Part shown: positions 1 through 64,000 of the stretch, one piece after another | How the letters are laid out: every line of letters starts with the position of its first letter | How positions within the stretch are numbered: the first letter of the stretch is position 1 | IMG/VR virus record: IMGVR_UViG_3300037470_000577 | Location: 1 to 64,000 of that record | Strand: one strand, 5' to 3' | Origin: a virus | Lineage: Duplodnaviria > Caudoviricetes | Length of the DNA stretch: 64,000 nucleotides | Made by a program: the position numbers and the translations under genes | Notes under the pieces: generated by a model | Databases searched by the model: none | What the model saw: only the letters and a program-made list of their open reading frames with translations | What the model was told of the DNA's origin: nothing

Positions 1-217
1 CCACTACCATGACCGGCGCATGAAGATAGCGGCAGGTGATGGCGTCTTGTGGTGCGCGGGCTGCGGCAAGGAGTACGCTCGCTGGCCCCTGGCTGATTTA
101 CCGCTCTACATGGGGCTGCCACCCTAATATGAACAAGAAGGGGCAGCAGTGGACGATATAACCGTCATAGAGATGGCGACAATCTGGTCGCTGTCCTTCA
201 TCTCAACTATTACTTTA

Positions 218-35855: not shown

Positions 35856-36677
35856 ATGATCCACGTTTGCTCCTTTTCAACTGGACTTTCATCGGGCCTA
35901 ATGACAGAGAGAGTTCTAGGGAAGCATGGAGCCGATTCTACAAGGGTTGTTTTCATGGATACCACGATAGAGCATGAGGATAACTACCGCTTCTTGAATG
36001 ATATGGAACGGCGCTGGCAAGATGTTTATGGGTTGGGGGGGATAGAGATTCTGCGTGAGGGTCGTTCGCCTTACGAGGTGGCTGATGACCACCACATTGT
36101 CGCCAACCAGCGAACGGCTCCATGCACCAAGGAGTTGAAGATTTGGCCGTTTATGGAATGGTTGAAACGACAATCTTTCCAGCCCGTCATTCATATCGGG
36201 ATAGATTACTCCGAGGTTCATCGCAAGAAAGCAATCTTGCGAAACTACACGAAGGCAGGTTACGAGGTTGACTTCCCCCTTCTTTGGAAACCAATTGAGC
36301 ATCGTTCATACTCTCTTGTTTGCCGGGAAGATTGGGGTATAAAGCCACCAGTGACCTACGCAATGGGGTTCTCTCATGCCAATTGTTTGGGGCAGGATGA
36401 GCAGGGCAGGGGGGGGTGTGTCAAGTTTGGAATAGGGGATAGGGTGCGCCAGTATATCCACATGCCCGACATTGCCCTGGCGACGGCCCAGTGGGAGTTG
36501 AACAGTCCAGGTTATACCAAAGGGGGATACACTATGCTGCGTGACCAGAGCGGGGGCAAGGTTTCGGCCAGAACATTGCAAAGCGTTATTGATGAGTACG
36601 ACGGCAATCCACCCAGTCTATTTGACACTGCCTGTATTCAGTGCGGGATTGGCGATTTTATAGGAGAAGAAGAATGA
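35856..36677 (+). CDS. PAPS-reductase-like PP-loop protein
   Basis: SFSTGLSS PP-loop, DT..EHEDNYRF, PCTKELK, IGID..E..R and GFSHANC.....GCVK. Confidence 0.7.
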   Translation: MIHVCSFSTGLSSGLMTERVLGKHGADSTRVVFMDTTIEHEDNYRFLNDMERRWQDVYGLGGIEILREGRSPYEVADDHHIVANQRTAPCTKELKIWPFMEWLKRQSFQPVIHIGIDYSEVHRKKAILRNYTKAGYEVDFPLLWKPIEHRSYSLVCREDWGIKPPVTYAMGFSHANCLGQDEQGRGGCVKFGIGDRVRQYIHMPDIALATAQWELNSPGYTKGGYTMLRDQSGGKVSARTLQSVIDEYDGNPPSLFDTACIQCGIGDFIGEEE

Positions 36678-49738: not shown

Positions 49739-49977
49739 TATTCTTCCTCCTCATGGGTTAATTGGGATAACAAATAAGCCTCCCTTACCTGATAGACAAG
49801 CAAGTAGGTACTATAGCCAACAATGTGCGTACCGTGCTGGGGTAGGTTGTCCAGCTTTTCCAGGCTGTCAATACCCAATCCCTCTAAGGCGGCAATAACG
49901 AGCTTCGCTTTCTTGGCCGGTTTAACGATTTTGCGAATGTATTTATTGAACATAAAGCGTTCCTTACAGCAGAGCAA
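49738..49977 (-). CDS. small hypothetical neck-region protein
   Basis: Coupled ORF. Confidence 0.5.
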   Translation of the reverse strand: MLCCKERFMFNKYIRKIVKPAKKAKLVIAALEGLGIDSLEKLDNLPQHGTHIVGYSTYLLVYQVREAYLLSQLTHEEEE

Positions 49978-51205
49978 AGGTATATTGGGCGTCGCTCTGC
50001 TTTAGCTGCATCAAGATACGATAGGCTTCCACTTCACCCATCTTGGTTCCAAAAGGACAATTCAAGATGTCGCGCCGGATGAACTTAACCTCTTCCCCTT
50101 CCTTTCGTCTGGTCTGGGCGATGATGAGGTCTTGCTTGTATTCATTCTCTTTGGCCCGAACGTTCTCGCAGGTGGAGCAGATGGGCTTCTCCAGTCTGGC
50201 CGTTGTCATGTAGACAATGGCCTGGGCCAGCGCCTCCGGGATAACGTACTGGCCGTTCTCGACCTCCGCCAGACCAGACAGGTAGCTGCTGACAACTCTA
50301 TCAGGCTCGAAGCCGTTGATAAAGGCGGTGTCGGTAAAGGTGTCGCCCTCGTAAATGGTGGGAACGGGCGATACCAGACCAACTTCCGGACTGCGTGGTA
50401 GAAGCTGGGCGGTCTGCACCTCGGCGATGTTGATGTGTCTGCCGCTCCAGTAAAGCGTACACTGCTCGGCCGGATCGGTGTAGACCCGATATACGTCAAC
50501 AGCGGCAACAAAGCTGGCCGGAACATCTATGGGAATGCCGGAGCCGTAGGCTGAACCGGGCCACGCCTCCTGAACGGCTGGCGACAGCAGCATCTCGCTC
50601 GCTACCGTTGCGGTGAAGGTCGTGCCGTCGGCGCTCTTGGTCAGAAGCGGCCGAATCTCCCACTGTTTGGCTGCGCCCGTTCCGACAAAGAAGAGCCTTA
50701 ATTCGGTTAGCTCAGTTAAATCGGTCAGCGCCGAAATGGTTGCCAACTCATCCCAACCATCGCCGTCCGGGTCGCTGTAGGTGACGGTCGCACCCGCTTC
50801 GATGAGGGTAGCGGCCCGCTTGCCGCCAGTGATGAACCGCTCTCGTTTCAGGGCAACGGACTTAAACGAGCCGTTGACACTTCGACCGGTCGTGCCGACA
50901 AAATCAGGGCGAAAGAAGGATGGGTACTGGCCGTTCTCGTTCTCGATATAGTGCGGGGCAGGCCAGTATCGTAGTTCGGAAGCAATGGCGTTTTCTGTTC
51001 GGGCCATCTCGCGGGCCAACTCTTCCCGGCTGACGCGCGTTCGATGCTGCCACTCATGCTGATACCAGATGTCACGGCAGCCCTCGTTTTGGGGGATTAA
51101 GGGAACGCTTGAATCATCACCACCATTAAAATGGACAGGATTGATACCCATAATACGGGCATAGGTGTCCAGGGGGGTGATGGTGTAGATACTAGCTCTT
51201 GCCAT
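49964..51205 (-). CDS. head-tail adaptor/neck protein
   Basis: 413 aa; SREELAREM.RTE..IA..LRYWPAP and C-terminal PFGT..GEV.AYR; position after the head genes. Confidence 0.55.
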   Translation of the reverse strand: MARASIYTITPLDTYARIMGINPVHFNGGDDSSVPLIPQNEGCRDIWYQHEWQHRTRVSREELAREMARTENAIASELRYWPAPHYIENENGQYPSFFRPDFVGTTGRSVNGSFKSVALKRERFITGGKRAATLIEAGATVTYSDPDGDGWDELATISALTDLTELTELRLFFVGTGAAKQWEIRPLLTKSADGTTFTATVASEMLLSPAVQEAWPGSAYGSGIPIDVPASFVAAVDVYRVYTDPAEQCTLYWSGRHINIAEVQTAQLLPRSPEVGLVSPVPTIYEGDTFTDTAFINGFEPDRVVSSYLSGLAEVENGQYVIPEALAQAIVYMTTARLEKPICSTCENVRAKENEYKQDLIIAQTRRKEGEEVKFIRRDILNCPFGTKMGEVEAYRILMQLKQSDAQYTFALL

Positions 51206-51476
51206 AATGTTTATCTACTAGCAGCGCCGCCGCCGACAAGGCGAAAGGCATGGCCGCTTTAACAGGTACAAAGACAAGCGCCAGTCCAACCCAAACCGAC
51301 AGGCAGTATTTGCAGGTGAGTGCTTCTGATAGTTCGTTCGTACCATAGGAGATAGCGCCTTCATACCGAACGCCCGCCTGGTGGCGAAACCAGCGCAGAC
51401 AGTCATAGGGGCCATCCTCTTCCATCAAGAGTTTGACCAGTCGCCACGTTGCCAGTGCCTTAATCAAATAGTCCAT
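51192..51476 (-). CDS. DUF1360-like membrane protein
   Basis: ALATWRL..LL..EDGP....R......L.EALTC.YCLSVWVG. Confidence 0.75.
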   Translation of the reverse strand: MDYLIKALATWRLVKLLMEEDGPYDCLRWFRHQAGVRYEGAISYGTNELSEALTCKYCLSVWVGLALVFVPVKAAMPFALSAAALLVDKHYGKS

Positions 51477-51483
51477 AACCAAT

Positions 51484-51529
51484 AAAAAAAGGGCCGGTCA
51501 GCACAGGGAGGATACCCGCTGACCGGCCC
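51484..51529 (-). terminator. intrinsic terminator closing the glycosylation cassette
   Basis: 12-bp GC stem GGGCCGGTCAGC/GCTGACCGGCCC followed by T7 on the - strand. Confidence 0.8.
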
Positions 51530-51628
51530 AAGTGGGAGCCGTACAGTGAAATAGTACAGGAAATTATGAAAAGTTACAAGGGACGCCCTTTCATGCTACG
51601 TGCGAAACCTTCACTACTTGTGAAGCCT

Positions 51629-54600
51629 TCACGCCGCGTGAACTTCGGAACCGAATACCAGGTCAACGGTACTTTGTCCCACGCCAGGCAGCGCCAGCAA
51701 GCCGTCTGGCCCCAATGCCTGGGCCTGGGCTAAGGTGGTAATGCCTTTCTCCTCCAATGCCTTAAGCGAACGGAAGTTGATGGGTAGTCTACTAAGTGGT
51801 TCTTCGACAACGATGGGCTTGGGCGCCTCTCGCTCACGCTGTTTGGCCTGGTACGCTTCTCGTCGCTGCTGGATTAAGTCAACCGGATCGTAGCCGTTGA
51901 CAGTCTTTCTTTCGACAGGTTCAGGCTGGGCGACAGGTTCGAGACGGGGGGCAGGAGCGACCTGTTCTGTATGGCGAGGCTGACCGCCACAGTCGCACCA
52001 GGCTGTCTCACGGTTAAACTGGAGAGGACGGCGGCAGTAGGCGCAGGCAAAAATCTGCACCTGTGCCCGCACATCCTGACTATCCACATTCTTAACAACA
52101 TCGCCCTTCGTCACGCGGGTATAACGTTTGCCGGTTTCGGCGCCAACAAGCCACTGCTCGCCGCCAAAACCCTGGTAGATTACATCCATCGCACTCATCT
52201 CCATTGGGGCAGGTGGCCCCGGTTGTTTTTCATCGTTATCACAGTTACACATACGCTCTACCTCATTGAATTTCTGCTGGATATAGGTTAAGGAACGGGC
52301 GTACACATCCGGCTCCTGAATCCGCCGCCTGCCGCTTGCCAGGTCATATATCCACAGCGGCTCGGCAATCTTGGTGAACTGCCGCCCGCTCCAAGATAGC
52401 TGCAAAATCAGCAGGTTATCTTCCCACGTTTCCAGCGTCTCGTCAAAGGGGATCATCCACTCGCGCGGGATCAGGATATTCGTTCCGGCAGCGGTGTAAG
52501 GGATTGGCCCCTGGGGAAAGGCCGTTGCTTTCTCGCAGCGCCATTCAGGAACCTTATCTGGTATGTACGCCTTACCACCCGCAATCTTGGCCGCTGGTGG
52601 GCCGTAGCTGTCGGCGTACTGCTCGTCTACCAAAGCAATAAAATCACTGTACGGTATCTTGCCCGTCTCTTGAAAGCGGCGGTAATGCTTTGCCAGATAT
52701 TCCGGTAGGATACGGTCGTCGGCATCGACAAAGGCTAACATCGCCCCCTTCGCCTGCCCTACGCCAGCATTGCGAGCCGCGCCCGCTCCCACGCCGTCCG
52801 TCTCTAAGTAGGTGACAAAGGGGAAGGCAGTGCGGTAATAGGCTTTAGCCGTCTCGTTCTCAACGCCATCCCATACCACAACTGCCGCCCATTCCCGCAT
52901 AGTCTGCCCTTCGATGCAGTGCAGGCAGTTGACCAATAGCCCTTCGTGACCTGGGCCAACCGGGATAATGATAGAGACCTCCGGCTTCTCGTAGGAATAA
53001 ACGGGATGGGCAATGCCGTTCACAGGCTGGGCGATAGAGGCAAACGGATGGACGCCGCCGCTGGTCCAGGGATGTTCGAGCGTCCAGTCCGGCTCTTCAT
53101 AGCCCATCTTACCCGACACATGCCCCACACCCGAATAGTGAAGCCATCTGCTGGGCCTGTCGCGGTCAACGACATAGCTTGCGCCCCAACCCATTGCCCC
53201 CAATCGCAGCCATAACTCAGCATCCTCAGACCCAGCGCCATCCGGGGCGTAGAGCGGCATGTAGCCGCCCGCTCGCTCGAAGGCTTTGCGGCGAATCATA
53301 CAGCCTGACGGAACCTGATTTATGTGCGCTAACTGCTTCTGATAATCAAATGGGAAAGGCCAGTTATACTCATAATCTTCAACTCTGCCATCGTCGTCCC
53401 AACGAATCTTGCCCGTCATACTATCTTTCTGGAAACCACGAACCGTATCTATGCCCAACATGGAAGTGTAAGCCACTCCCAACGTTCCATCTCGTTCCAA
53501 CTCTCGCGCCAGAATCGGCGACCAACCCGGCTCAATATTATCGTCGGCATCTAAGAAAGCTAGATACTTACTCTGCCCCTGTCTGGCCCCATAATTACGA
53601 GCCAGAGCAACGTTGCCAAATTCGACCCGATGATAGCTGATACGGCTGTCTCCCTGAGCCGCCACAATCTCCTGTATGCCAGGGTCAGATGAATCGTCCA
53701 CGACGATGATGTTCTTGACTGCTGAACTTTGGCCCATTGCGCCCTGTAGCGCCCGTTCTAGGGTATGATGGTAATTGTGGCAGGGAATGACTATATCGAC
53801 TGAGGGCGGCTCGTTTTGAAGGGCTAGACGATAAACGGTGGCGACTTGGGCAACGATGCCAGGCCAGGAATAGCTCTTTGCGATTTCTTTGGCCCAGGTC
53901 GAGTAATCTCTCCTGTTGTAAAGTATATCTTCAAGAAGCATTACGGCGTCATCAAAATCTCTATAAGACCAACCGGCTTTCTTTCCTGGTCTTAAAAGAA
54001 AATTCGGGACCTCCCCAGCGTCAACCGTTAGCACCGGAACGCCACTAGCCATCGCCTCCAGTGGGGCGATACCAAATGTTTCCCGGTCTGAGGCAATGAA
54101 CACCAGCGATTGCTGGATAAGGCGCTTCATCTCGCCCGAAGGAACCGCGCCGCCCAACACCTGTAAGTTGGCGGGCTGGTTAGGCCCGGCCAGGGTCGAA
54201 ATGAACTTCTGACTTGGAAAGGCTTTTGCCAATCTGTTAATGAACGAAGGGTCGAGGCCGTCCGTTGCCCGGTTCTTAGCCCACAGGATATGGGCTGGCG
54301 TCTCATTATGCTGCCACTCCTCCCACTCTACGCCATGCGGAATGATGTGGGGTGTGACGCGCATGTCTCGTTGGAAGGGCATGGCAACCCATGGCGACGG
54401 AACGGTTACCTGACGGGCTAGGCGGTAGGAGCGTACTAGGTCGCGATTAACGACGTGAGCGGCATCACCTAATTGCGGCATCTCTCCCGTCCAGAGATTT
54501 CCGTGTGAATGAACCACCTGCGCTCCAGGATGGGCGGCGGCATGAGCTACCTCCAGGTCGTAGCTGGTCGCCATCGGGTCAACCAACTCAATATCGTAGT

Positions 54601-54697
54601 CCGGCAGGTAGCGGAAGTAATGTTTGATTACCTGGGCAATGCCGTTGTCGTGGTTTGCCAGGTCGTGAAGATGGGGATACATGCGTACTTTAATCAT
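51629..54697 (-). CDS. multidomain glycosyltransferase GT4 + GT2 + GT2 + Cys-rich segment + HhH
   Basis: GT4 ETFGIAPLEAMASG (E-x7-E); GT2 VIPCHN...FLDADD; GT2 IIIPVG...FVDADD; CAYC..CDC; C-terminal KGITTL..A......LLALPGVGQST HhH. Confidence 0.9.
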   Translation of the reverse strand: MIKVRMYPHLHDLANHDNGIAQVIKHYFRYLPDYDIELVDPMATSYDLEVAHAAAHPGAQVVHSHGNLWTGEMPQLGDAAHVVNRDLVRSYRLARQVTVPSPWVAMPFQRDMRVTPHIIPHGVEWEEWQHNETPAHILWAKNRATDGLDPSFINRLAKAFPSQKFISTLAGPNQPANLQVLGGAVPSGEMKRLIQQSLVFIASDRETFGIAPLEAMASGVPVLTVDAGEVPNFLLRPGKKAGWSYRDFDDAVMLLEDILYNRRDYSTWAKEIAKSYSWPGIVAQVATVYRLALQNEPPSVDIVIPCHNYHHTLERALQGAMGQSSAVKNIIVVDDSSDPGIQEIVAAQGDSRISYHRVEFGNVALARNYGARQGQSKYLAFLDADDNIEPGWSPILARELERDGTLGVAYTSMLGIDTVRGFQKDSMTGKIRWDDDGRVEDYEYNWPFPFDYQKQLAHINQVPSGCMIRRKAFERAGGYMPLYAPDGAGSEDAELWLRLGAMGWGASYVVDRDRPSRWLHYSGVGHVSGKMGYEEPDWTLEHPWTSGGVHPFASIAQPVNGIAHPVYSYEKPEVSIIIPVGPGHEGLLVNCLHCIEGQTMREWAAVVVWDGVENETAKAYYRTAFPFVTYLETDGVGAGAARNAGVGQAKGAMLAFVDADDRILPEYLAKHYRRFQETGKIPYSDFIALVDEQYADSYGPPAAKIAGGKAYIPDKVPEWRCEKATAFPQGPIPYTAAGTNILIPREWMIPFDETLETWEDNLLILQLSWSGRQFTKIAEPLWIYDLASGRRRIQEPDVYARSLTYIQQKFNEVERMCNCDNDEKQPGPPAPMEMSAMDVIYQGFGGEQWLVGAETGKRYTRVTKGDVVKNVDSQDVRAQVQIFACAYCRRPLQFNRETAWCDCGGQPRHTEQVAPAPRLEPVAQPEPVERKTVNGYDPVDLIQQRREAYQAKQREREAPKPIVVEEPLSRLPINFRSLKALEEKGITTLAQAQALGPDGLLALPGVGQSTVDLVFGSEVHAA

Positions 54698-56023
54698 TTA
54701 CCACGTAGCCAATTCGATGTCGGGGTCTGCCGCGCCATCTCCAAGAACTTCCTTAGCATTACCGGTTAGCAGAACCGGAGGCTGGGAGGTGCCAAGAATA
54801 GCCAGATATACTCTACCACCAAGCAAGATTTTCATCCGCTCCAGGAGGGAGGGTTTCCAGCAAGAAACAAGGGCGGGGCTGGTGTTGTACTGGATACGTA
54901 AAACGTGCATATTGCCGATATTCCTATCCTCGTCTCCCGTATAGGTTGTTTGTTGTTTATGAAAACTGATTGGTTTCATCACGCCTCTCTTTTATTCGGC
55001 CTCGGCTTGCGCGGTTTCCTGCGCTTCACCAGCCCTAATTCCGACAGCCTCTCCGCACTCAACTGCCCAATATCGCTGCCGGGTTCAACGATGGTAACAG
55101 AGAAGTCGGCATAGGGAACGGATGCGGCCCAGGCCCACACCGCTTCCTGAATTTCGTCCGGCTTGTCATGGTAGATAATGATGATGTCGCCGTCCTGGGG
55201 ACGGATTACCTTGCCGTTAAGAATAAGGTCACTCATTGCCCATCCCTGTCCAATAAAAGGCTTCTTTTTCCATCTCGTCCAAAATAGAGAGACAATCGCT
55301 CGGTGTTAAATATTTGCCCGTCACTCTTTGCTGATTAAGCTCGCGTAATCCAGCCGCTTGGTTAGCACGTTTCCCGAACTCAATTGTCCACACCGGAAGG
55401 TCGTATGTTCGTTGGCCTACAACTAACTTACCATCGTGGATTTTGCCGTCTGTGTCATAAGAATAAGAATCAAGTTCGTACATCAGATAAAGCAACAGAG
55501 GATTATCAAGTTTGGCAGTCTTAACCTGGAGCCACCTTCTAAAATTTCCAATTGACCAATGAATAGGGTTATAGGATTCCGCCTCCATCTTCATGCTATA
55601 TGTCGTTCCGATTCCCAGGTGGTCAACATCCATCTCCCGGTCTAGCAGGGATACGGCAGTTCGATAATCGCTCTCGCTTTCAAAGTAGAAAATCGCAGCG
55701 TATTTTTCCGTGACGGTTACACCAATAGTAGTTTCTTGTGCCATCTAATTCACCACTCTCTTCTCTGCCCTATAGATAGGGTTAAAGTCCTTATCTGGTT
55801 CCAAATGCCAATCGTACTTTTGGTCGGATACGGGGGTCTCGACAGATTCATACAGATCGTTAAACGCTATCTCTTCAACAAACCATGTCTTACCGCCACT
55901 TCTTACCCGCCAGTCTCCAGGGGAATACCTAAATTCTGAACCACTTTCCAAATCAATAAAGGTTCCTCCCTCGTCAACTTGTTCGGCAAATACAGTATGC
56001 GGCCTTCTTCGGTACGGTTCCAT
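54698..56023 (-). CDS. four hypothetical ORFs inside the cassette (54698-54982, 54979-55236, 55229-55744, 55745-56023)
   Basis: Tightly coupled; the first has the common phage VSCWK.S..ER...L..GRV.L...G..QPPV motif. Confidence 0.65.
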
Positions 56024-56024
56024 A

Positions 56025-56717
56025 TTAGTTCACCACCAATCCCTTGCCTATCTGATTAGACATCCCGATGTGCGCCCATTGATATTTATTTAACCCATAC
56101 ATGGGAATGAACACCGATGGCCCGTTGTCGCCCAGTCCCCGTTTCTTCTCGATAAAGCGGGAACAGAACGCCATCTCCGTCTCGCCCAACGGCAAACTCT
56201 CATCGTACCAGCCGTAGTAATCGGTGTGAAACTGCCTGACCTTGAGATGAGGACGATTGGAAGTCACATACAATTCATTATAGGGCAGGAGTTCCCAATA
56301 GTCACCCCATGCCTGGGCCGCGAATTTATAATGCTTGTCCGGCTCAATGCACTCGCCCATATAATAGCGCACCCAACCGAAGCGCGGCTCGTTGTTCAGG
56401 CGGCGGGCGGCGTCGTTGAGGTCAAGAGGCTGGGTCAGTATGTGATCGTCGTCCATCTGAAACAGGAGGTCGGTGCTGGCCGTTTCAATCAGGCGGTTGA
56501 GATTTGCGCCTAACCCCCGCTTGGGGCCAGGAACAATGTGTACCCTATCATCCAGGACGGCAATCTCGTCCAGGCTTTCCGCGCCATCATTGCCAATCAG
56601 GTAGTGGATGTGGCCTAACTCGTAGCGGACATTGGCTCCAAATTGGGCAACGGCTAAGGCAACGGTGCTGGGCCGGTTGTAGGTGGGGATGAGGACGGTG
56701 ATGTCGAGGTCAGCCAT
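56025..56717 (-). CDS. GT2 (GT-A fold) glycosyltransferase
   Basis: ITVLIPTYNRP, GNDG, GLG.N.N and FQMDDD (DxD). Confidence 0.9.
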   Translation of the reverse strand: MADLDITVLIPTYNRPSTVALAVAQFGANVRYELGHIHYLIGNDGAESLDEIAVLDDRVHIVPGPKRGLGANLNRLIETASTDLLFQMDDDHILTQPLDLNDAARRLNNEPRFGWVRYYMGECIEPDKHYKFAAQAWGDYWELLPYNELYVTSNRPHLKVRQFHTDYYGWYDESLPLGETEMAFCSRFIEKKRGLGDNGPSVFIPMYGLNKYQWAHIGMSNQIGKGLVVN

Positions 56718-57006
56718 CTACATATCCTGTTGTAAGCAAGGCATCCAGCCCCGGAAATTCGTTGCCGGTATCAACTCGCCCTGGAGCACCGTGCCAGAGA
56801 TAGCTGGTTTTCATCTCTGCTTGGTGGTCACTTTCCAGGATGGCGAACAAGCGTCGATACTTCTTGCCGGTTTTTTCCGTCTCCCGAACGCTTCCATGAA
56901 GAAGAGTGCGAACGACCTCTCTTTCTCCGCGAAGAAAAAGGCGGGTCATTCGTTCCTTATTTCTTTTCAAGATAACCTCCGGCTTGTCTATGTCAAGATG
57001 GGTCAT
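56710..57006 (-). CDS. hypothetical protein
   Basis: Coupled between the sulfotransferase and GT2 genes. Confidence 0.55.
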   Translation of the reverse strand: MTHLDIDKPEVILKRNKERMTRLFLRGEREVVRTLLHGSVRETEKTGKKYRRLFAILESDHQAEMKTSYLWHGAPGRVDTGNEFPGLDALLTTGYVDG

Positions 57007-57673
57007 ATCTAAACCTCGTGATGTCGTCAGTGAAAAACGTCTCCACTTCTGCAATCTGTTCGGCTGTCAGCGCCTCGCGCCACTGCCCTATTTCGCCAGA
57101 ATAGATGTGACGGGGCGACATGAAGTGCCGTTCGTTCTGGTCCAGTGCCATCCCCGCCCGTATCCGATTGGCCTCCCTACCCCACTTGCGGGCGATGTAT
57201 TCGGCAAGGTCAGAATGAAGGTGAAAGTCCATGTAGCTGCCAACCACCTTAACAAACCGGGTCGGATCGGCCATCATATCTTCGTAACGAAGATACTCTG
57301 CTCCGGGGCCAATCCCATAAACATAGCCAGACTTGGTTTCCCACGAACTGAGCGCCGCACTCCAGTTCTGCACTGCCCTACTTGCCATCGTGCCTTCAAA
57401 TGTATTTTGCTGAAAGTGCACGAGCGAGACGAATACATCTCTTGGATCGCGGACGGTCACAACAGCCCGATAGTCAAAACCCTTTAGCGCCGGATGCCAC
57501 TCATGCAATTTGATGACTACGCCATTCGGCTCGCTCTCCCACCCGCGCACCATATCGGCGTCGATGCCGAATGGCCTAACCACTCGCCCGCCGTGTAGGA
57601 GAACAATTTCGCCCATGACCTGGTAGAGAAAGGTCGAAGCGGTTTTCATGGGGCCACCGGCAATATAGAGCAT
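56993..57673 (-). CDS. PAPS-dependent sulfotransferase
   Basis: 5'-PSB loop GGPMKTASTFL, 3'-PB RDPRDVFVS, RYEDM..DP and C-terminal SGEIGQWRE.LT.EQ. Confidence 0.88.
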   Translation of the reverse strand: MLYIAGGPMKTASTFLYQVMGEIVLLHGGRVVRPFGIDADMVRGWESEPNGVVIKLHEWHPALKGFDYRAVVTVRDPRDVFVSLVHFQQNTFEGTMASRAVQNWSAALSSWETKSGYVYGIGPGAEYLRYEDMMADPTRFVKVVGSYMDFHLHSDLAEYIARKWGREANRIRAGMALDQNERHFMSPRHIYSGEIGQWREALTAEQIAEVETFFTDDITRFRYDPS

Positions 57674-57674
57674 T

Positions 57675-58119
57675 TTAGATGACCCTCTGGTAAATCAACC
57701 TTTTTCGCAGCTCATGAACCTCTGCCTCCAGCTTTTCAACCCTTTCCTTAATGCTTGGTGGTTCTTCGCTAAACATCCTGACAACATCATTTCCATCGTC
57801 GTCGGTGACAACTTCACCAATTACAACGCCGGCCATATATTCCATACCCATCTTCTTTCGTCCATTATTTTAATTTCCTCAGAAGTTCCTTCTCGTAAAC
57901 AGTCATTTCCAACACCGCTCTGATATTATGACCAGTGAGCGATTGGTATGCTTCCGCAAGCCTCTCGCACAATTCCGTATAGTTCTCCACCGTATTCGAT
58001 AATTCTTCTCTATCGGCATCGTGTTGGATTAGCCGGTCGGCATACTCTTGTCTAAGTTCCTCGAATTTTTCAAACTCCTTGTATATGGAGTCTGTGATTT
58101 GTGCATCTAACTTGTCCAC
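57675..58119 (-). CDS. two small coiled-coil ORFs (57675-57851, 57865-58119)
   Basis: In-cassette ORFs; the first (58 aa) is below the ORF-track cutoff. Confidence 0.55.
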
Positions 58120-58124
58120 GATAT

Positions 58125-58664
58125 TTACACCATTCTCCTAAACGACCGAATCGTACAGGCTCTCTCCAGTTCTACGAACCTATCACCATTGGCTGCATAC
58201 CAATCCGAGACAACTTCATTCACTTCGGGACAGATGTGGTGCGGTTTGTTGGGGTCGCAGGAACCGTAGTCGCTACAATCGTGGAAGGCAACCACGCCAT
58301 TGACGGTCAGACGGTCAATCCACCCCAGGTCTAATGTCACCCCCTGCCTGGAATGGTCGCCGTCTATAAACAACAAGTCAATGTCGCCAACGAAGGTTTG
58401 GAGAACATCGTGCGAACGGCCCTCGACCAGATAGAAGTTGCGGTTGGGATATTTCGGCCCCGCATAGCGGGCTAGGGAAATGTCTATGCCGGTGACAGAG
58501 ACGGAGGGTTTAGCGCCATCGGTCAGGCAGACCATTGACTTACCAAATTCGATTCCAATATTAACAATACTTCCATTCTCTGGTACTTCCCCGGCAAGTT
58601 TATATAACCGTTTTGCCTCAACCTCTTGAAGATACCCTCTCGCTTTTAGGTGTCTGTCACTCAC
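58125..58664 (-). CDS. class I SAM-dependent methyltransferase (Methyltransf_24-like, putative sugar O-methyltransferase)
   Basis: VNIGIEFGKS motif I; DLLFIDGDHS..GV..D......GVVAFHD. Confidence 0.85.
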   Translation of the reverse strand: MSDRHLKARGYLQEVEAKRLYKLAGEVPENGSIVNIGIEFGKSMVCLTDGAKPSVSVTGIDISLARYAGPKYPNRNFYLVEGRSHDVLQTFVGDIDLLFIDGDHSRQGVTLDLGWIDRLTVNGVVAFHDCSDYGSCDPNKPHHICPEVNEVVSDWYAANGDRFVELERACTIRSFRRMV

Positions 58665-58960
58665 TCTGTAGCTCCTTTACTTGGGAAAAAGTATTTCTCA
58701 GGCTCTTCATTCCAATTAACACCTTCTATCTGGTTTGGCGTAACCACTTTCCCTTTGATAATGAAAAAGCGGTCTCCGTATCCAGAGAACCTACTAAGTC
58801 CAAGATAGCCCGTCGCTTTGATTGGATGAAGCGGTGCTTCTTCGGTAGCGTGACTGAGTTCATTGACGAGAGAATCCTCTTCACGCACTAAGACAATGCC
58901 AGCACTAGGAGAGATAACGAAATATACATCTTCTTTTTCAAATGTTGGTCTGTCAGACAT
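58661..58960 (-). CDS. hypothetical protein
   Basis: Coupled ORF. Confidence 0.55.
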   Translation of the reverse strand: MSDRPTFEKEDVYFVISPSAGIVLVREEDSLVNELSHATEEAPLHPIKATGYLGLSRFSGYGDRFFIIKGKVVTPNQIEGVNWNEEPEKYFFPSKGATE

Positions 58961-59153
58961 ATTCTATCTCTACCTCCAGTGGGTCAATCGTCTCGTTCTC
59001 AAAATATATACGAACAACCTGCCTACCCTGCCGGGCAAGGTCATTGTGGATTAGTTGGCGGATGTAGGCCACCAGTGACAGGTCGCGCTCGCCCGCTCGC
59101 TCAGTTGCCGCTTCGTGCAACTCATCTTCTAATCGTACAGAGAAAGATACCAT
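58953..59153 (-). CDS. ribbon-helix-helix (Arc/CopG-like) regulator, leaderless
   Basis: FSVRLEDELHE.A...A....SL..YIRQLI; ATG lies 7 nt after the -10 box. Confidence 0.8.
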   Translation of the reverse strand: MVSFSVRLEDELHEAATERAGERDLSLVAYIRQLIHNDLARQGRQVVRIYFENETIDPLEVEIEYV

Positions 59154-59159
59154 AACCTG

Positions 59160-59188
59160 ATTCTATCTGGCAAGGTTTACGGTGTCAA
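59160..59188 (-). promoter_or_regulatory. sigma70 promoter of the glycosylation cassette
   Basis: TTGACA-N17-TAGAAT on the - strand. Confidence 0.85.
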
Positions 59189-59222
59189 GTTGGTGCAAAT
59201 ATGAGAGCGTTGTGAGCGACGG

Positions 59223-59250
59223 TTGGCAGTGGAGGATGTCGTGCTATAAT
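59223..59250 (+). promoter_or_regulatory. divergent + strand promoter
   Basis: TTGGCA-N16-TATAAT with TG extension (TGCTATAAT 59242-59250). Confidence 0.7.
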
Positions 59251-59428
59251 GTTCATGTTTGTTCTCTGCGGCGGGAAGGTAGGAGTCCCCCTAGCTCCTA
59301 CCTTCCCGCCCACCTAAAAACATTCGCTGGCAGTAACAGTAATAGGGGGCCAAAACGTTCTCATATCCTTCTTCCAAAGTAAAAGAGCTATCCTATATGG
59401 ATAGCTCTTTTACGTAAAGGAGAACTAC

Positions 59429-59530
59429 ATGAGAAGTAGTTGGGCGGACGGACAAACCATAACCCATTTGCCGGGACGTGTCAATAAAAAAGAGAGTGGC
59501 ATAAAAACCACTCTCTTTTTATTTAAATAA
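59429..59530 (+). CDS. 33-aa small ORF antisense to the capsid operon
   Basis: AAAGGAG RBS (59416-59422); ATG 59429 to TAA 59530; preceded by two 15-bp hairpins. Confidence 0.4.
   Translation: MRSSWADGQTITHLPGRVNKKESGIKTTLFLFK
59483..59523. terminator. bidirectional intrinsic terminator downstream of the major capsid gene
   Basis: AAAAAGAGAGTGG-CATAAAAA-CCACTCTCTTTTT, with A/T tracts on both sides. Confidence 0.8.
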
Positions 59531-59571
59531 TCAGGATAAGAATTTGAATAAAACTCTTATCGTTGCGATTT

Positions 59572-61086
59572 TTATAGCCAAGCAGCGTAAGCTGTTGGGC
59601 CTGCCGGTGAACGTCCAGGGGTTGAAACGCCACCATTGACCCAATAATTTGAGTCTGGATGCGGGTCGCGCAGCGGTGCATTCTGGCGGGCATATTTGAG
59701 CCGGATAACTCTGAAACCAAGATGGGGTGTCCGTACCACAACACGGGGCGCGGTCGTCATCTTCAACTTGAAGCAGGTGAACTTGCCATCTTGCGACCAC
59801 AGGAACCGACCGCCATCTGTTGACCAATTGATGAGATTGGCCGGAAGTCCGGCTGCCTGGGCATTAATATCTGCATAGTTGAGATACTGCCAATAAGTGA
59901 CGGGCATACCGCCTGCCGAGAGGGGGATGAAGTTGAAGGATGAGGCAAACTCGCCCATGCCCAAGCCGGGATTGGAGGCGCTATTCTCTTCCGGGATGCC
60001 ATGATCAATGACGACATTGTAGCGCCGACCGTTGATGTCGATGTACAGCCCGGCTCGCATCGCATCCCGCTCCTGAACGTTGGTTCTGGCGTCGATCATC
60101 ACGCGAGCATTACTACCGGCAATGACGGCCATATCGGGCTGCGTGTTGTAGGCGATGGGCCAGACGCTTGTTAGAACGCGCCATAGCTGGGGCCGAACGG
60201 CAACGACGAAATCGGCCGGGTCCATACCGGTGTCCATCGCCAGATTAAAGGCGAAATCTTCCGCCTCTTCGATGGGGGCCACAACGTCAAAGGCTGAACC
60301 AACGGTCTGGTAATTGACGTTGATAATGGTTGTATCAGCCGAGGGTAGCGCCTTGCCACTAATTTCGGCATCGACCTGCCCGGTTACAAGCTGGGATTCC
60401 AGACCTGGGAACTCAGCATAGCCGCCCAGCGTCTTAACCGCCACATTGCCTGTCCAGAGCATCTTATTCAGCTTGCGCTCCATCCGAACGCCGGTCTGGA
60501 GTTGTTCGGCCTGAACAACCAGGTTCAGGATGTTGGCCTGATTCAGATTGGTGGGATAGCCAATGCCCCGGTTCTCATCATTCAGAAGCGAGCCAACGAG
60601 CATTAAGTCAGTGAAGTCGCCCCGGTTAATCTTGGTGATAGTTTGGGTGATCTCGATATTCTCGGTGTCGCGGGAAACAACGCCGAAACGGGCGGTCAAC
60701 GTCCCTGATTTGATGTAGCCCGATGGCGCATCATCGCAGGGGTAGGTTGGTTCGCCGCCCTGATCATCGGAGATACCGGTCAAGAGACCGAACATCGGGT
60801 TGGTATCGTTGGACGGGAAGGCTTGCAGCAGGGAGCCAAGTCCTCTGGCCCGAACATGAGTAGAGATAACGGCATTGTCCAGTCCTGGGGTGTTGAACAA
60901 CCCGCCCGGCCCGTGCAGCAGTGTGCCGGTATGGGCATTGACAACATCACGGGACAAGGCATTACCGCCATATTGATGTAGACCCTGCATGATGTCTAAC
61001 CCGCCACCAACGTCACGACCGCGCCGGGCAGACATTTCCAGGTGACGAGCAACTTCTTTAGCGAGGGCTTCGATTTCGCCAGCCAT
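59572..61086 (-). CDS. major capsid protein
   Basis: 504 aa; follows scaffold and protease-like genes; followed by a terminator; AEFPGLE..L motif. Confidence 0.75.
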   Translation of the reverse strand: MAGEIEALAKEVARHLEMSARRGRDVGGGLDIMQGLHQYGGNALSRDVVNAHTGTLLHGPGGLFNTPGLDNAVISTHVRARGLGSLLQAFPSNDTNPMFGLLTGISDDQGGEPTYPCDDAPSGYIKSGTLTARFGVVSRDTENIEITQTITKINRGDFTDLMLVGSLLNDENRGIGYPTNLNQANILNLVVQAEQLQTGVRMERKLNKMLWTGNVAVKTLGGYAEFPGLESQLVTGQVDAEISGKALPSADTTIINVNYQTVGSAFDVVAPIEEAEDFAFNLAMDTGMDPADFVVAVRPQLWRVLTSVWPIAYNTQPDMAVIAGSNARVMIDARTNVQERDAMRAGLYIDINGRRYNVVIDHGIPEENSASNPGLGMGEFASSFNFIPLSAGGMPVTYWQYLNYADINAQAAGLPANLINWSTDGGRFLWSQDGKFTCFKLKMTTAPRVVVRTPHLGFRVIRLKYARQNAPLRDPHPDSNYWVNGGVSTPGRSPAGPTAYAAWL

Positions 61087-62483: not shown

Positions 62484-62882
62484 TTATGTTTCCTTGTCAA
62501 AATTCTCCGGCGATGTGAGGGAAGCGTCTGCATGAATAGAGCCGCCCGGTTGGGCCGTCACCGTCATACTCGCCCCCCGTCCCATGCGTACCCGGTCAAT
62601 AATATCATTGGCATAATTACTGCCCCGACTGATAATGATGCCGGTAATAACTACCCCCACATAGGGGATGCGGGCCTGAAAACCCAGCGCGTCAAAGAAG
62701 TCCAGGTTGTAGGCAATGGCTGTGACAATGGACAGGACAAGGGCCACGATAAACCGCCAGTTCTCTCCCAGCCACTCTTTCGAGAATGACAGCCCCTTGA
62801 AAACATCGAGGGCATTAACTGACCCCTCAACCAGCACCGCTCCCAGAGCGATGAAACCAATTAGCTGTAAAGTAGTGTCCAC
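62484..62882 (-). CDS. putative holin
   Basis: Three TM helices; LDFF..LG.......G..ITG.IISRGSNY..D motif. Confidence 0.6.
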   Translation of the reverse strand: MDTTLQLIGFIALGAVLVEGSVNALDVFKGLSFSKEWLGENWRFIVALVLSIVTAIAYNLDFFDALGFQARIPYVGVVITGIIISRGSNYANDIIDRVRMGRGASMTVTAQPGGSIHADASLTSPENFDKET

Positions 62883-62962
62883 ATTAAACCTCCATTAACG
62901 CATGAGTGACTAATAGTTAATCCATGATACCATTATGACACTAAAACAGCAAGGAGAATGAT

Positions 62963-63241
62963 ATGGAGAAGCTATTCGACAAGAACGGCAAAGAGATTCG
63001 GGAGGGGGATACGGTCTCCCTTGCCGGAAACATGACCGCCGATGATAGCCTGGGCTATTTGCCTAATGGTTGGATATTTGATGAGAGTGATGTGTACGAA
63101 GTTTACTTTGATGAAAGGATTCAAGGGTTGGCATTGCAGTTGGGAGTGGAACCAGATAGCGCAGAAAACGCCAAGTATATGAATCACGCCATGTCACTAT
63201 TATATGGCGGTATGGTAGAGATTGTAGAAGGAGAACGATAG
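62963..63241 (+). CDS. YopX-like protein
   Basis: DKNGKEI.EGD.V motif. Confidence 0.65.
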   Translation: MEKLFDKNGKEIREGDTVSLAGNMTADDSLGYLPNGWIFDESDVYEVYFDERIQGLALQLGVEPDSAENAKYMNHAMSLLYGGMVEIVEGER

Positions 63242-63418
63242 ATGACAAACTTTGAGCTCAAAGTATTCCTGGCCTCCTTTGTATTTGTGCTTGCTGCATG
63301 GCAAGCTGTTGCAGAAGTTCTCTTTATATTAACTGACGAAGCCGATAAGGGGTATACCCGATTTCAGACCTGCCTCCTGTATCTTATTATTGGCCTGTTG
63401 CTCCTTCACGCCGCGTGA
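63241..63418 (+). CDS. small membrane protein whose stop codon lies in a palindromic box
   Basis: Two hydrophobic stretches; ends CTTCACGCCGCGTGA. Confidence 0.5.
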
Positions 63419-63632
63419 AGATTCAGGAGGAGATGGGTGATTTAAGGTAGCCCAGGATCGTAACTGTACCGGCCGTTCCTCCGCAAGCCCCTCGCCCGCA
63501 TCACGGCCGACATAACCGAACTCCAGCGCGAACGTCTCCACGAGAAAGCAGAATTATTCGGCGGCTGGTCTGAGCTATGCCGCCGAATTGCCGACGATGA
63601 AATTAAATTGAGTTTTAAGGAAGGGTAACCAA

Positions 63633-64000
63633 ATGATTTTCTCAATTAGCGACCTACCGATAACCCCGGAAAACCTCCGGGAATACGAAAGATTCTTATT
63701 GGAAATACACGACGAAGTACCATACGGCGAATTGTGCGACTGTGGCGACTGTCTGGGAGTTAGCCCTCGTTTGATTGCAGCGGCCGACAGGATAGAGGAG
63801 CTTGAAAAGAAACAAGCCGCCCTGAAAGATGATAACGAGGCTCTGAAAAAAGAACTCGGAAGTTCACCAACGGCCGACGCTCTCAACAAACTATGGCAGG
63901 ACATCATTCTCAAGAGAAAGCCCGACTATGGTGATTGGGAATATCCCGGTCAGGCTTACCGGCATTTATTGACAGAGTATGAGGAATTGAAGGCCGACCC
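63633..64000 (+). CDS. hypothetical protein, truncated by the window end
   Basis: Open frame from ATG 63633; coiled-coil segment. Confidence 0.5.
   Translation, partial: MIFSISDLPITPENLREYERFLLEIHDEVPYGELCDCGDCLGVSPRLIAAADRIEELEKKQAALKDDNEALKKELGSSPTADALNKLWQDIILKRKPDYGDWEYPGQAYRHLLTEYEELKAD

What the first reader, a model, noticed from the sequence alone, without database searches (positions are those of the whole stretch)
51484..59188. Self-contained glycosyl-sulfo-methyl-transferase cassette inserted between capsid and neck genes: candidate sulfated virion-glycan system
Seen: a 7.7-kb - strand unit with its own TTGACA-N17-TAGAAT promoter, a leading RHH regulator, a Methyltransf_24-like MTase, a sulfotransferase, a stand-alone GT2, a GT4-GT2-GT2 fusion, and its own terminator. 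It sits between the capsid terminator and the neck genes. Established: some actinobacteriophages carry GT and O-methyltransferase genes among their structural genes and glycosylate capsid/tail proteins. Inference: four GT active sites plus methyl- and sulfo-transfer would build an oligosaccharide that is methylated and sulfated, a strongly anionic decoration I do not know to have been described on a phage virion. Possible roles are masking, adhesion to EPS/S-layer, or modifying the host surface for superinfection exclusion.
Basis: partly seen in the sequence, partly recalled or inferred. Interest (0 to 1): 0.87.

Follow-up and report, generated by a model that had tools for sequence, protein, structure and literature searches.

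The report
Phage capsid-side sugar-building island with sulfotransferase
An uncultured sediment phage carries, between its capsid gene and its head-tail adaptor gene, a 13-gene operon of sugar-adding, methylating and sulfate-adding enzymes; nearly every sampled relative has its own version there, so it probably sugar-coats the virus particle, but that is unproven.

Summary
A tightly packed - strand operon (59153 to 51629) has a near-consensus promoter, an RHH first gene, a Methyltransf_24 enzyme, a Sulfotransfer_1 enzyme, a GT2, a 1022-aa GT4-GT2-GT2 fusion and a strong terminator. It has 13 ORFs, not six. The upstream 504-aa gene folds as an HK97 major capsid protein. The downstream 413-aa gene best matches phage head-to-tail adaptors.

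It is not a private insertion. In 50 related IMG/VR records, 47 carry GT2 matches, including all 13 that are at least 90% complete. These are mostly the same triple fusion, downstream of the capsid gene and usually just before the adaptor. The stretch between capsid gene and fusion is hypervariable and full of nucleotide-sugar enzymes, methyltransferases and glycosyltransferases. Ten of 50 records have sulfotransferases there, and one also has an APS kinase.

No relative encodes thymidylate-synthase-like or TET enzymes, a priming phosphoglycosyl transferase or a many-helix (flippase-like) membrane protein. That weighs against DNA or exported polysaccharide as the target.

The best reading is cytoplasmic glycosylation of virion proteins, with methylation and sulfation as optional tailoring. 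The acceptor is inferred, not shown. Earlier notes of this scan describe similar islands in other genomes.

The parts
59572..61086 (-). Major capsid protein, 504 aa, HK97 fold. Last gene before the island.
   Evidence: The AF2 model was built on a 44-sequence alignment (pLDDT 76, pTM 0.70). Foldseek against the PDB gives probability 1.00 and E about 1e-9 to the SU10, Mic1, PhiTE and HK97 capsids. There are 288 homologues in metagenomes.
59483..59523 (-). Intrinsic terminator after the capsid gene.
   Evidence: Hairpin with dG -20.4 kcal/mol and z -7.6, followed by a U run.
59160..59188 (-). Sigma-70-type promoter TTGACA-N17-TAGAAT of the cassette.
   Evidence: Matches 11 of 12 consensus positions and is the best site in 51000-60000.
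58953..59153 (-). 66-aa ribbon-helix-helix protein, first gene of the operon and its presumed regulator.
   Evidence: Pfam HicB at 24.5 bits against a cut-off of 21, covering only the RHH part. Weak PHROG matches to Arc-like repressors.
58661..58960 (-). 99-aa ORF of unknown function, overlapping both neighbours.
   Evidence: No Pfam or PHROG match.
58125..58664 (-). 179-aa class I SAM methyltransferase (Methyltransf_24), a candidate sugar O-methyltransferase.
   Evidence: Pfam E 1.5e-14. Homologues sit in the same island in 19 related loci. Methyltransf_24 occurs in 9 of 125 island ORFs of relatives.
57865..58119 (-). 84-aa ORF of unknown function.
   Evidence: No significant family match. 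One low-depth contig of run X5 appears to lack it.
57675..57851 (-). 58-aa ORF of unknown function.
   Evidence: No family match.
56993..57673 (-). 226-aa PAPS-type sulfotransferase.
   Evidence: Pfam Sulfotransfer_1 E 5.8e-11. Aligns to plant SOT16 (8k9y) across the 3'-PB and C-terminal motifs. K54-x-H56, R75-DPRD..S83, RYED and RHIxSGxxGQW are conserved in 24 relatives. There are 229 representatives at E<=1e-3 among 1.84 billion.
56710..57006 (-). 98-aa ORF of unknown function (114 aa if it starts at the TTG at 57054), filling the gap between the sulfotransferase and the GT2.
   Evidence: ORF list. No family match. Whether it is coding is unverified.
56025..56717 (-). 230-aa stand-alone GT2 glycosyltransferase.
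   Evidence: Pfam Glycos_transf_2 E 7e-12. 45% identical to a 285-aa GT2 at the same island position in L004/L016.
55745..56023 (-). 92-aa ORF with a weak PGDYG-like match.
   Evidence: Pfam PGDYG at 22.5 bits, below the cut-off of 27.
55229..55744 (-). 171-aa ORF of unknown function.
   Evidence: No match in Pfam, PHROG or NCBIfam. The Atlas gives only unnamed clusters below 0.9.
54979..55236 (-). 85-aa ORF with a basic C-terminus, function unknown.
   Evidence: No family match.
54698..54982 (-). 94-aa ORF of unknown function.
   Evidence: phrog_34105 (unknown function), E 4.7e-7.
51629..54697 (-). 1022-aa GT4-GT2-GT2 fusion with a Cys-rich segment and a weak helix-hairpin-helix tail. This is the conserved core enzyme of the island.
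   Evidence: Pfam. Full-length homologues lie downstream of the capsid gene in 30 of 50 loci within 10 kb, and GT2 matches occur in 47 of 50 records. E206, E214, D383, D385, D658, D660 and D661 are invariant in 33 of 33. The three GT domains are aligned in nearly all homologues, the C-terminal 150 residues in only 20-47%. HHH_5 is sub-threshold at 16 bits in this protein, but HHH families are precomputed on several homologues.
51491..51529 (-). Intrinsic terminator of the cassette.
   Evidence: Hairpin with dG -32 kcal/mol and z -5.0, followed by a U run.
51192..51482 (-). 96-aa conserved small protein with one hydrophobic segment, which follows the GT fusion in relatives.
   Evidence: Homologues directly after the fusion in 17 loci. 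phrog_781, plus DUF1360 just below its cut-off (20.4 bits against 21). One TM-like segment.
49964..51205 (-). 413-aa head-to-tail adaptor-like protein with an inserted beta domain.
   Evidence: AF2 pLDDT 87 and pTM 0.87. In VIA-align, the top five rows and most of the top 50 are phage neck or adaptor proteins (GTA 6tba_2A Z 7.4, phi812 Z 6.5, DT57C, Milano, Mu, HK97 gp6, P22 gp4, SU10). The Atlas gives SU10_adaptor as a lead. Foldseek alone found nothing.

Best explanation
The stretch is this phage's version of a hypervariable glycosylation island. A large family of uncultured tailed phages with genomes of about 55-90 kb keeps such an island between the major capsid gene and the head-to-tail adaptor gene.

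The proposed mechanism runs as follows:
1. Late in infection the operon is transcribed from its own promoter, probably under control of its RHH first gene.
2. All its products are soluble cytoplasmic proteins.
3. The conserved GT4-GT2-GT2 fusion lays down a short core oligosaccharide. The GT4 domain is the likeliest initiator on a protein hydroxyl, and the two GT2 domains extend the chain.
4. The stand-alone GT2 adds a further sugar.
5. The Methyltransf_24 enzyme O-methylates the glycan with SAM.
6. The sulfotransferase O-sulfates it with host PAPS. This phage encodes no APS kinase.
7. The acceptor is most likely a virion protein that is being assembled at that time. The capsid protein is the first candidate.

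Shown here: the enzyme families, their intact catalytic motifs, the operon structure, the capsid and adaptor flanks, the family-wide synteny, and the glycan-related content of the island.

Inferred: the order of the steps, the sugar identities, that methyl and sulfate groups go onto the glycan, and above all the acceptor.
For: - The enzyme calls and catalytic motifs are intact.
- The operon is tightly packed with overlapping ORFs and has its own promoter and terminator.
- The flanks are a capsid protein and an adaptor-like protein.
- GT2 matches occur in 47 of 50 related records and in 13 of 13 that are at least 90% complete. Most lie in 700-1060-aa frames. The fusion lies downstream of the capsid gene on the same strand and is followed by homologues of p96, p413 or both in at least 23 of 30 loci.
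- 125 island ORFs from 30 relatives are dominated by sugar chemistry: Epimerase 18, Polysacc_synt_2 13, RmlD 15, DegT 7, GHMP kinase 5, Methyltransf_24 9, GT2 8, Sulfotransfer_1 6, GT10 2.
- Sulfotransferases occur in 10 of 50 records. All lie between the capsid gene and the fusion on the same strand. One island (L037) also holds an APS kinase, and one (L035) has a methyltransferase-sulfotransferase fusion.
- No cassette ORF has a TM-like segment. Only 11 of 368 ORFs scanned downstream of the capsid gene in 50 relatives (islands, or the whole flank where no end was found) have two or more, and none more than five, so none looks like a flippase or polymerase.
- 0 of 50 records have a priming phosphoglycosyl transferase.
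- 0 of 50 records have ThyS-like or Tet_JBP genes, and neither does this genome.
- A tyrosine integrase is absent here and present in only 3 of 20 relatives. Lysogenic conversion therefore cannot be the general role.
- Precedents exist. Mycobacteriophage GT plus O-methyltransferase genes modify capsid and tail-tube proteins (Freeman et al. 2023, as cited in PMC11600133 and PMC11256854). PBCV-1 A111/114R is a conserved three-GT-domain protein that builds the capsid glycan core, and A064R is a GT-GT-methyltransferase (PMC7826918).
Against: - No acceptor is identified. No virion protein of this phage has an obvious Ser/Thr-rich tail.
- The conserved GG[VT]S motif in the disordered C-terminal tail of the capsid protein does not track GT presence cleanly.
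- The fusion's C-terminal helix-hairpin-helix is a nucleic-acid-binding type of motif. It is weak here but precomputed on several homologues.
- A conserved small protein with a hydrophobic segment (p96) follows the fusion. This leaves room for a membrane-associated step.
- Relatives' islands also hold a few DNA methylases.
- The GTs share no detectable sequence relationship with any GenBank phage beyond a generic GT2 domain.
- The host is unknown and there are no expression data.
Confidence: 0.55

Rival explanations
1. The enzymes modify a host envelope glycan, such as a lipid-linked LPS, EPS, teichoic-acid or S-layer glycan precursor. They would act during infection to mask the receptor, so that progeny or competing phages do not adsorb to infected cells or debris.
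For: - GT2 and GT4 enzymes typically act on lipid-linked or polysaccharide acceptors. The best sub-threshold NCBIfam names are EPS, teichuronic-acid and colanic-acid GTs.
- PHROG labels for weak matches include GtrB-like O-antigen conversion.
- A conserved small protein with a hydrophobic segment follows the fusion.
- Sulfated polysaccharides are known from bacteria (my own knowledge).
Against: - 0 of 50 relatives have a priming phosphoglycosyl transferase.
- Neither the cassette nor the islands contain flippase-, polymerase- or transporter-like polytopic proteins.
- The gene is near-universal and fixed inside the head-neck part of the structural operon, which is unlike accessory conversion genes.
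- An integrase is absent here and present in only 3 of 20 relatives.
Confidence: 0.18
2. The glycosyltransferases hypermodify the phage DNA with a methylated or sulfated glycan, to escape restriction or CRISPR. The helix-hairpin-helix tail would tether the fusion to DNA near the packaging site.
For: - Phage GT-A and GT-B enzymes add mono- to trisaccharides to DNA, and some such clusters lie near structural genes (bioRxiv 10.1101/2023.12.21.572611).
- HHH motifs occur on the fusion and several homologues.
- DNA methylases occur in some relatives' islands, and this genome has a C5-methylase fragment.
Against: - All described routes need a hydroxylated pyrimidine made by a ThyS homologue or a TET/5mYOX enzyme. 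ThyS is absent from this genome and from 0 of 50 relatives.
- Tet_JBP also gave no hit in any of them. The control genomes did not ring for that model, so this half of the test is weaker.
- The HHH tail is aligned in only about 20-47% of homologues, whereas the GT domains are universal.
Confidence: 0.08
3. The enzymes act on something else in the cytoplasm. This could be a host protein (takeover), a small molecule, or a free oligosaccharide. Alternatively, the slot after the capsid gene is simply a hot spot for unrelated cargo with no common target.
For: - The best NCBIfam resemblance of the first GT2 domain is to MftF, a small-molecule GT, though far below its cut-off.
- The sulfotransferase aligns best with a plant small-molecule SULT.
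- Seven small ORFs of unknown function share the operon.
- The islands also contain cREC_REC domains and DNA methylases.
Against: - The cargo is strongly biased towards one chemistry: nucleotide-sugar synthesis, GTs, and methyl and sulfo tailoring.
- The fusion is fixed in position and catalytically invariant across capsid divergence down to about 30% identity. This argues for one conserved function tied to the virion module.
Confidence: 0.12

Closest known systems
Mycobacteriophage virion glycosylation (Che8, Corndog/Cluster O; Freeman et al. 2023, known here through PMC11600133 and PMC11256854)
   Same: Both have phage-encoded glycosyltransferases beside an O-methyltransferase gene. The mycobacteriophage enzymes are reported to modify capsid and tail-tube subunits in the cytoplasm without host secretory machinery.
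   Different: - There is no detectable sequence relationship. tblastn of the fusion against 50,697 GenBank phage records finds only short generic GT2 hits, none in mycobacteriophages, and the sulfotransferase finds nothing.
- Here three GT domains are fused, and the gene is fixed between the capsid and adaptor genes.
- The island also carries a sulfotransferase here and, in relatives, whole nucleotide-sugar pathways.
- The acceptor is unproven, and no C-terminal Ser/Thr tail is evident.
Chlorovirus PBCV-1 capsid glycan enzymes A111/114R (three GT domains) and A064R (GT-GT-methyltransferase) (PMC7826918)
   Same: Both have a virus-encoded, multidomain GT of about 860-1020 aa that is conserved across the whole virus group. 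In PBCV-1 it builds the conserved core of a capsid glycan in the cytoplasm, and methylation serves as tailoring. Some homologues of this fusion also carry a fused methyltransferase domain.
   Different: PBCV-1 is a eukaryotic giant virus with a double-jelly-roll capsid and N-linked glycans. Homology was not tested here. No sulfation is described for PBCV-1.
Clade-specific glycosylation gene clusters of Megavirinae (PMC9614988)
   Same: Both are variable, clade-specific clusters that combine rare-sugar pathways, single and multidomain GTs, methyltransferases and sulfate-metabolism enzymes. In Megavirinae the clusters are linked to the fibrils that surround the capsid. [quoted passage not shown]
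   Different: These are giant viruses of amoebae, and their clusters are not placed between capsid and neck genes. Sulfation is likewise unproven there.
Phage DNA sugar hypermodification clusters (Pyle et al., bioRxiv 10.1101/2023.12.21.572611; Lee et al., PMC13326640)
   Same: Both have phage GT-A or GT-B enzymes, sometimes with epimerases and secondary GTs, and sometimes near structural genes.
   Different: Those clusters depend on ThyS-like or 5mYOX enzymes. No such gene was found in this genome or in 50 relatives, though the TET model's control did not ring.

Membership tests
PAPS-dependent sulfotransferase (Pfam Sulfotransfer_1) | Profile match above the curated cut-off | tested here: met
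   42.7 bits against a cut-off of 22.
PAPS-dependent sulfotransferase (Pfam Sulfotransfer_1) | 5'-PSB loop, catalytic base after a conserved Lys, 3'-PB Arg and Ser, and C-terminal GxxGxW motif | tested here: met
   G7..T11..S13, K54-x-H56, R75-DPRD-x3-S83 and RHIxSGxxGQW are conserved in 24 family members. The 3'-PB and C-terminal motifs align with SOT16, 8k9y. Assigning these residues to catalytic roles rests on my knowledge of cytosolic SULTs.
PAPS-dependent sulfotransferase (Pfam Sulfotransfer_1) | Transfers sulfate from PAPS to a defined acceptor | not testable with these tools
   This needs an enzyme assay. No APS kinase is encoded in this genome, so PAPS would have to come from the host.
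GT2 / GT4 glycosyltransferases | Profile matches above the cut-off, with DXD (GT-A) and EX7E (GT4) motifs | tested here: met
   Glycos_transf_2 at 126.9 bits in two stretches, Glycos_transf_1 at 38.7 bits, and the stand-alone GT2 at 46 bits. The motifs are invariant in 33 of 33 homologues.
Mycobacteriophage-type virion glycosylation system (Freeman et al. 2023) | Phage-encoded GT genes together with an O-methyltransferase gene | tested here: met
   The gene composition of the known system is taken from PMC11600133.
Mycobacteriophage-type virion glycosylation system (Freeman et al. 2023) | Sequence homology to the Che8 or Corndog enzymes | tested here: not met
   tblastn against GenBank phages at E<=1e-5 gives seven short generic GT2 hits, none in a mycobacteriophage. 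The sulfotransferase gives none. The methyltransferase was not searched.
Mycobacteriophage-type virion glycosylation system (Freeman et al. 2023) | Glycans covalently attached to capsid or tail-tube subunits | not testable with these tools
   This needs mass spectrometry of particles or of co-expressed proteins.
Phage DNA sugar hypermodification cluster | Co-occurring ThyS-like or 5mYOX/TET enzyme that provides the hydroxylated base | tested here: not met
   PF00303 gives 0 hits in this genome and 0 of 50 relatives, and its control rang in 10 of 14 genomes. PF12851 gives 0 hits but its control did not ring, so that half is inconclusive.
Und-P-dependent surface polysaccharide (O-antigen/CPS-type) gene cluster | Priming phosphoglycosyl transferase plus a flippase, polymerase or ABC exporter | tested here: not met
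   PF02397 gives 0 of 50. No cassette ORF has a TM-like segment, and among 368 ORFs downstream of the capsid gene in relatives none has more than five. WecA-type (PF00953) and Wzx Pfam models were not searched directly.
HK97-fold major capsid protein (upstream flank) | HK97 fold | tested here: met
   Foldseek probability 1.00, with 299 PDB matches at E<=1e-3; the listed rows are phage capsids plus a few encapsulins.
Head-to-tail adaptor (downstream flank) | Adaptor fold | tested here: inconclusive
   The best VIA-align rows are nearly all neck or adaptor proteins, but Z is only 7.4 or lower. Foldseek found nothing.

The most novel reading that the evidence does not exclude
A widespread family of sediment and soil tailed phages coats its capsids with a strain-variable glycan. 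A conserved three-domain glycosyltransferase would build the core, and an O-antigen-like swappable island would diversify it. In about a fifth of the sampled members, this phage included, the glycan would be sulfated. That would be the first sulfated glycoprotein coat on a bacterial virus.
Probability: 0.35. Interest if true: 0.8.

Novelty: new variant of a known kind. Interest (0 to 1): 0.62.

Why it matters
Virion glycosylation in bacterial viruses is so far documented only for a few mycobacteriophages. If this reading is right, glycan coats are a core trait, not an oddity, of a large, globally distributed and entirely uncultured phage family.

The trait would have three notable features:
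- A dedicated, conserved three-site enzyme.
- A hypervariable tailoring island, which implies diversifying selection on the particle surface in the way O-antigen loci vary.
- Sulfation, which would give the particle a strongly anionic surface. That bears on adsorption to minerals and EPS in sediments, on escape from grazing or enzymatic decay, and on host recognition.

It would also supply compact soluble enzymes for glyco-engineering: a triple GT and a 226-aa sulfotransferase.

Tried and rejected
The 48-kb Logan contig of the nearest relative could not be fetched, so its gene order is unknown.
- Single-protein scans of IMG/VR with the sulfotransferase, the GT fusion and p413 found nothing. 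Only the profile-based scan with the capsid alignment worked.
- GenBank phages gave no DNA match for the cassette and no protein match for the capsid protein.
- PHROG and Pfam did not identify the capsid, adaptor, p516 or p257 proteins.
- Sequence search of the PDB gave nothing useful for the flanks.
- Foldseek on the p413 model found no match at E<=0.001.
- The seven small ORFs have no usable family match. The Atlas gave only unnamed clusters for the 171-aa ORF.
- I looked for a capsid-tail Ser that tracks GT presence. The three records without GT2 matches (L052, L055, L063) differ at or after the GG[VT]S motif. However, several GT-positive phages also lack the Ser, only three records are involved, and all three are incomplete. 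I rejected this as evidence.
- No Ser/Thr-rich C-terminal tails were found on the window's virion proteins.
- Host assignment failed. Capsid homologues sit in MAG bins of unrelated phyla.
- No RNA holder was listed among public runs, so there is nothing to say about expression.
- The small shares of the sequence in soil and sediment runs are short, low-depth contigs. I take them only as a sign that near-identical DNA exists outside the source sample.

Full report
**The sequence.** The window is the first 64 kb of a 79,290-bp IMG/VR virus record that CheckV estimates as 96% complete. A stretch of its first 100 bases recurs within its last 100 bases, so it may be a complete genome. Genes on the + strand up to about 37.6 kb are early and replication genes: a DnaB-like helicase, a DnaJ-domain protein, a pentapeptide-repeat protein and a C5-methylase fragment. 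From about 79.1 kb down to 37.7 kb, almost all genes lie on the - strand and form the late module. It holds the large terminase (PHROG 2), a 536-aa ORF just downstream of it that I take to be the portal, the 504-aa protein, the cassette, then p96, p413, p516 and p257, a 1099-aa tape-measure-like protein and a tail-fibre protein.

**The observation.**
- The promoter TTGACA-N17-TAGAAT at 59188-59160 is the best site in the region, matching 11 of 12 positions.
- The hairpin after the 504-aa gene (dG -20.4, z -7.6) and the one after the GT fusion (dG -32, z -5.0) are both followed by U runs.
- The unit contains 13 ORFs, not six. Seven of them, of 58-171 aa, have no usable family match.
- Gaps between successive ORFs run from an overlap of a few bases to 13 nt, apart from a longer overlap at the uncertain start of the ORF after the sulfotransferase. 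This fits one translationally coupled operon.
- Logan contigs from the run marked as the possible source bridge both borders of the cassette. Short, near-identical contigs over the methyltransferase, sulfotransferase and GT2 genes occur in runs of other sediment and soil studies.

**The flanks.** I folded the 504-aa protein on a 44-sequence alignment, giving pLDDT 76 and pTM 0.70. Foldseek matches HK97-fold capsids of SU10, Mic1, PhiTE and many others at probability 1.00. I folded p413 on 18 homologues, giving pLDDT 87. Foldseek found nothing. The Foldseek-independent search ranks phage neck and adaptor proteins first (GTA Z 7.4, phi812 Z 6.5, DT57C, Milano, Mycofy1), and such proteins make up most of the top 50. 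This agrees with an Atlas lead to SU10_adaptor. 'Between capsid and neck genes' is therefore right. The adaptor call is of moderate strength.

**The family context.** This changes the reading.
- The capsid protein has 288 metagenomic homologues.
- A profile scan of IMG/VR returned 80 loci with up to 10 kb on each side.
- BLASTP of this phage's late proteins against their ORFs shows a conserved order: portal, p250, capsid, variable stretch, a full-length homologue of the 1022-aa fusion (alignments of about 800-1060 residues), p96, p413.
- Among 50 selected records, GT2 matches occur in 47, and in 13 of the 13 that are at least 90% complete. Most lie in frames of 700-1060 aa.
- Where the fusion is not within the 10-kb flank, it lies 10-20 kb further downstream on the same strand (and arithmetic).
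- The three GT domains are aligned in nearly all homologues. The EX7E motif and both DXD motifs are invariant in 33 of 33, although the capsid proteins have diverged to about 30% identity.
- The fusion is thus a fixed, selected gene of the family, not part of an insertion.
- The three records without GT2 matches are incomplete. In L055 and L063, homologues of p96 and/or p413 follow the capsid gene within 1 kb.

**The variable stretch.** In 30 relatives the stretch between the capsid gene and the fusion is 0.7-7.3 kb long. Its 125 ORFs of at least 130 aa are dominated by glycan chemistry:
- NAD-dependent epimerase/dehydratases: 18
- Polysacc_synt_2 dehydratases: 13
- RmlD-like reductases: 15
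- DegT aminotransferases: 7
- GHMP kinases: 5
- Methyltransf_24: 9
- GT2: 8
- Sulfotransfer_1: 6
- GT10: 2
- UDP-glucose dehydrogenase: 1

Sulfotransfer_1 passes its cut-off in 10 of 50 records. Every one of these genes lies on the capsid strand between the capsid gene and the fusion. One island (L037) also encodes an APS kinase, and one (L035) has a methyltransferase-sulfotransferase fusion. The closest IMG/VR relatives repeat the window's order. L005 has MT24, two SULT genes and a GT2. L004/L016 has MT24, a GT2 (45% identical) and the fusion. The nearest relative of all, a 48-kb Logan contig, holds the capsid protein (81%), the sulfotransferase (65%) and the fusion (62%). Its DNA could not be fetched.

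**The enzymes.**
- The sulfotransferase belongs to a small clade of compact enzymes of 210-235 aa. It has 229 representatives at E<=1e-3 among 1.84 billion.
- The Lys-x-His, RDPRD..S, RYED and GxxGQW motifs are conserved in that clade. It aligns with plant SOT16 over the PAPS-binding parts.
- This genome has no APS kinase, so PAPS would have to come from the host.
- None of the 13 cassette products has a hydrophobic segment.

**Which acceptor.**
- *DNA.* The described phage DNA-sugar pathways need a ThyS homologue or a TET-type dioxygenase. ThyS is absent here and in all 50 relatives. Tet_JBP also gave no hit, but that model's control did not ring. The weak C-terminal helix-hairpin-helix (HHH families precomputed on several homologues) keeps this rival alive at a low level.
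- *Exported polysaccharide.* No priming transferase occurs in the 50 relatives. No polytopic flippase- or polymerase-like protein occurs in the islands. Integrases are rare.
- *Virion protein.* What remains is a cytoplasmic acceptor made at the same time and encoded at the same place. This is an argument from position, conservation and exclusion, not a demonstration. I found no Ser/Thr-rich tail. The conserved GG[VT]S motif in the disordered C-terminal tail of the capsid protein does not track GT presence cleanly.

**Comparison with known systems.**
- The closest in function is mycobacteriophage virion glycosylation, where GTs plus an O-methyltransferase modify capsid and tail-tube proteins (Freeman et al. 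2023, via PMC11600133 and PMC11256854). There is no sequence relationship. tblastn of the fusion against 50,697 GenBank phages gives only short generic GT2 hits, and the sulfotransferase gives none.
- The closest in architecture is chlorovirus PBCV-1. A111/114R is a conserved three-GT-domain protein that builds the core of the capsid glycan, and A064R is a GT-GT-methyltransferase (PMC7826918).
- Megavirinae glycosylation clusters include sulfate-metabolism genes. The review only suggests that the sugars might be sulfated (PMC9614988).
- Sulfotransferases have been noted in marine phage genomes with 'unclear' function (PMC10580990).
- I found no paper that describes this phage family, its conserved triple GT or a sulfated phage glycan. 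The library does not cover all journals.

**Verdict.** This is a new variant of a known kind, phage-encoded virion glycosylation. It is notable for three things: it is a core, position-fixed trait of a large uncultured family; it has an O-antigen-like hypervariable tailoring island; and it recurrently includes sulfotransferases. Earlier notes of this scan describe similar islands in other genomes. I reached the same picture here from this window's own relatives.

Noticed in passing
window 62500-64000 and beyond (genome 62.5-75 kb; L002:500-13000): About 12 kb lies between the portal-like gene and p250. It holds ORFs of 451, 228, 144, 267, 344, 281, 152, 633, 169 and 211 aa on the - strand and two ORFs on the + strand. 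In almost all relatives p250 follows the portal within about 0.3-3.7 kb. This looks like a second accessory island inside the head module. The 451-aa ORF has an N-terminal hydrophobic segment and a Thr/Pro-rich linker.
   Followed up: partly
window 59189-59571: The 383-bp gap between the capsid gene and the cassette promoter holds three strong hairpins (dG -20 to -37, z -6 to -7.6). It also holds a + strand extended -10 promoter, TTGGCA-N16-TATAAT, at 59223-59250 that points back at the capsid gene. It may encode an antisense or regulatory RNA.
   Followed up: partly
window 35856-36677 (+): This 273-aa ORF has a sub-threshold PAPS_reduct-like match at 18.4 bits against a cut-off of 22.5. Pfam hmmscan at E<=0.001 and NCBIfam gave nothing. 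It could bear on sulfur-nucleotide metabolism or DNA modification.
   Followed up: partly
L037:12492-18202 and L035:13355-14488: One relative's island (L037) carries both a sulfotransferase and an APS kinase just upstream of the GT fusion. Another (L035) has a 377-aa methyltransferase-sulfotransferase fusion.
   Followed up: partly
L063:9875-13389, L055:6985-10661, L052: Three relatives have no GT2 match in their (incomplete) records. In L055 and L063, p96 and/or p413 homologues follow the capsid gene within 1 kb. The L063 capsid protein ends right after the GVSSR motif, and L052 has Tyr in place of the motif's Ser.
   Followed up: partly
window 57865-58127: One low-depth contig (depth 2.1, 22 letters on the shorter side) from a different sediment study joins 57865 to 58127. 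This would remove the 84-aa ORF. The evidence for a strain lacking this small gene is weak.
   Followed up: no
window 1-100 and genome 79191-79290: Bases 35-100 of the record recur inside its last 100 bases. The record may therefore be terminally redundant or circularly permuted, although IMG/VR lists it as linear.
   Followed up: no
window 51192-51482 (-): p96 always follows the GT fusion in relatives. It has an amphipathic N-terminus, a CxxC-like pair and one hydrophobic segment, plus a DUF1360 match just below its cut-off. Its role is unknown; it could be a membrane anchor, an assembly factor or a holin-like protein.
   Followed up: partly
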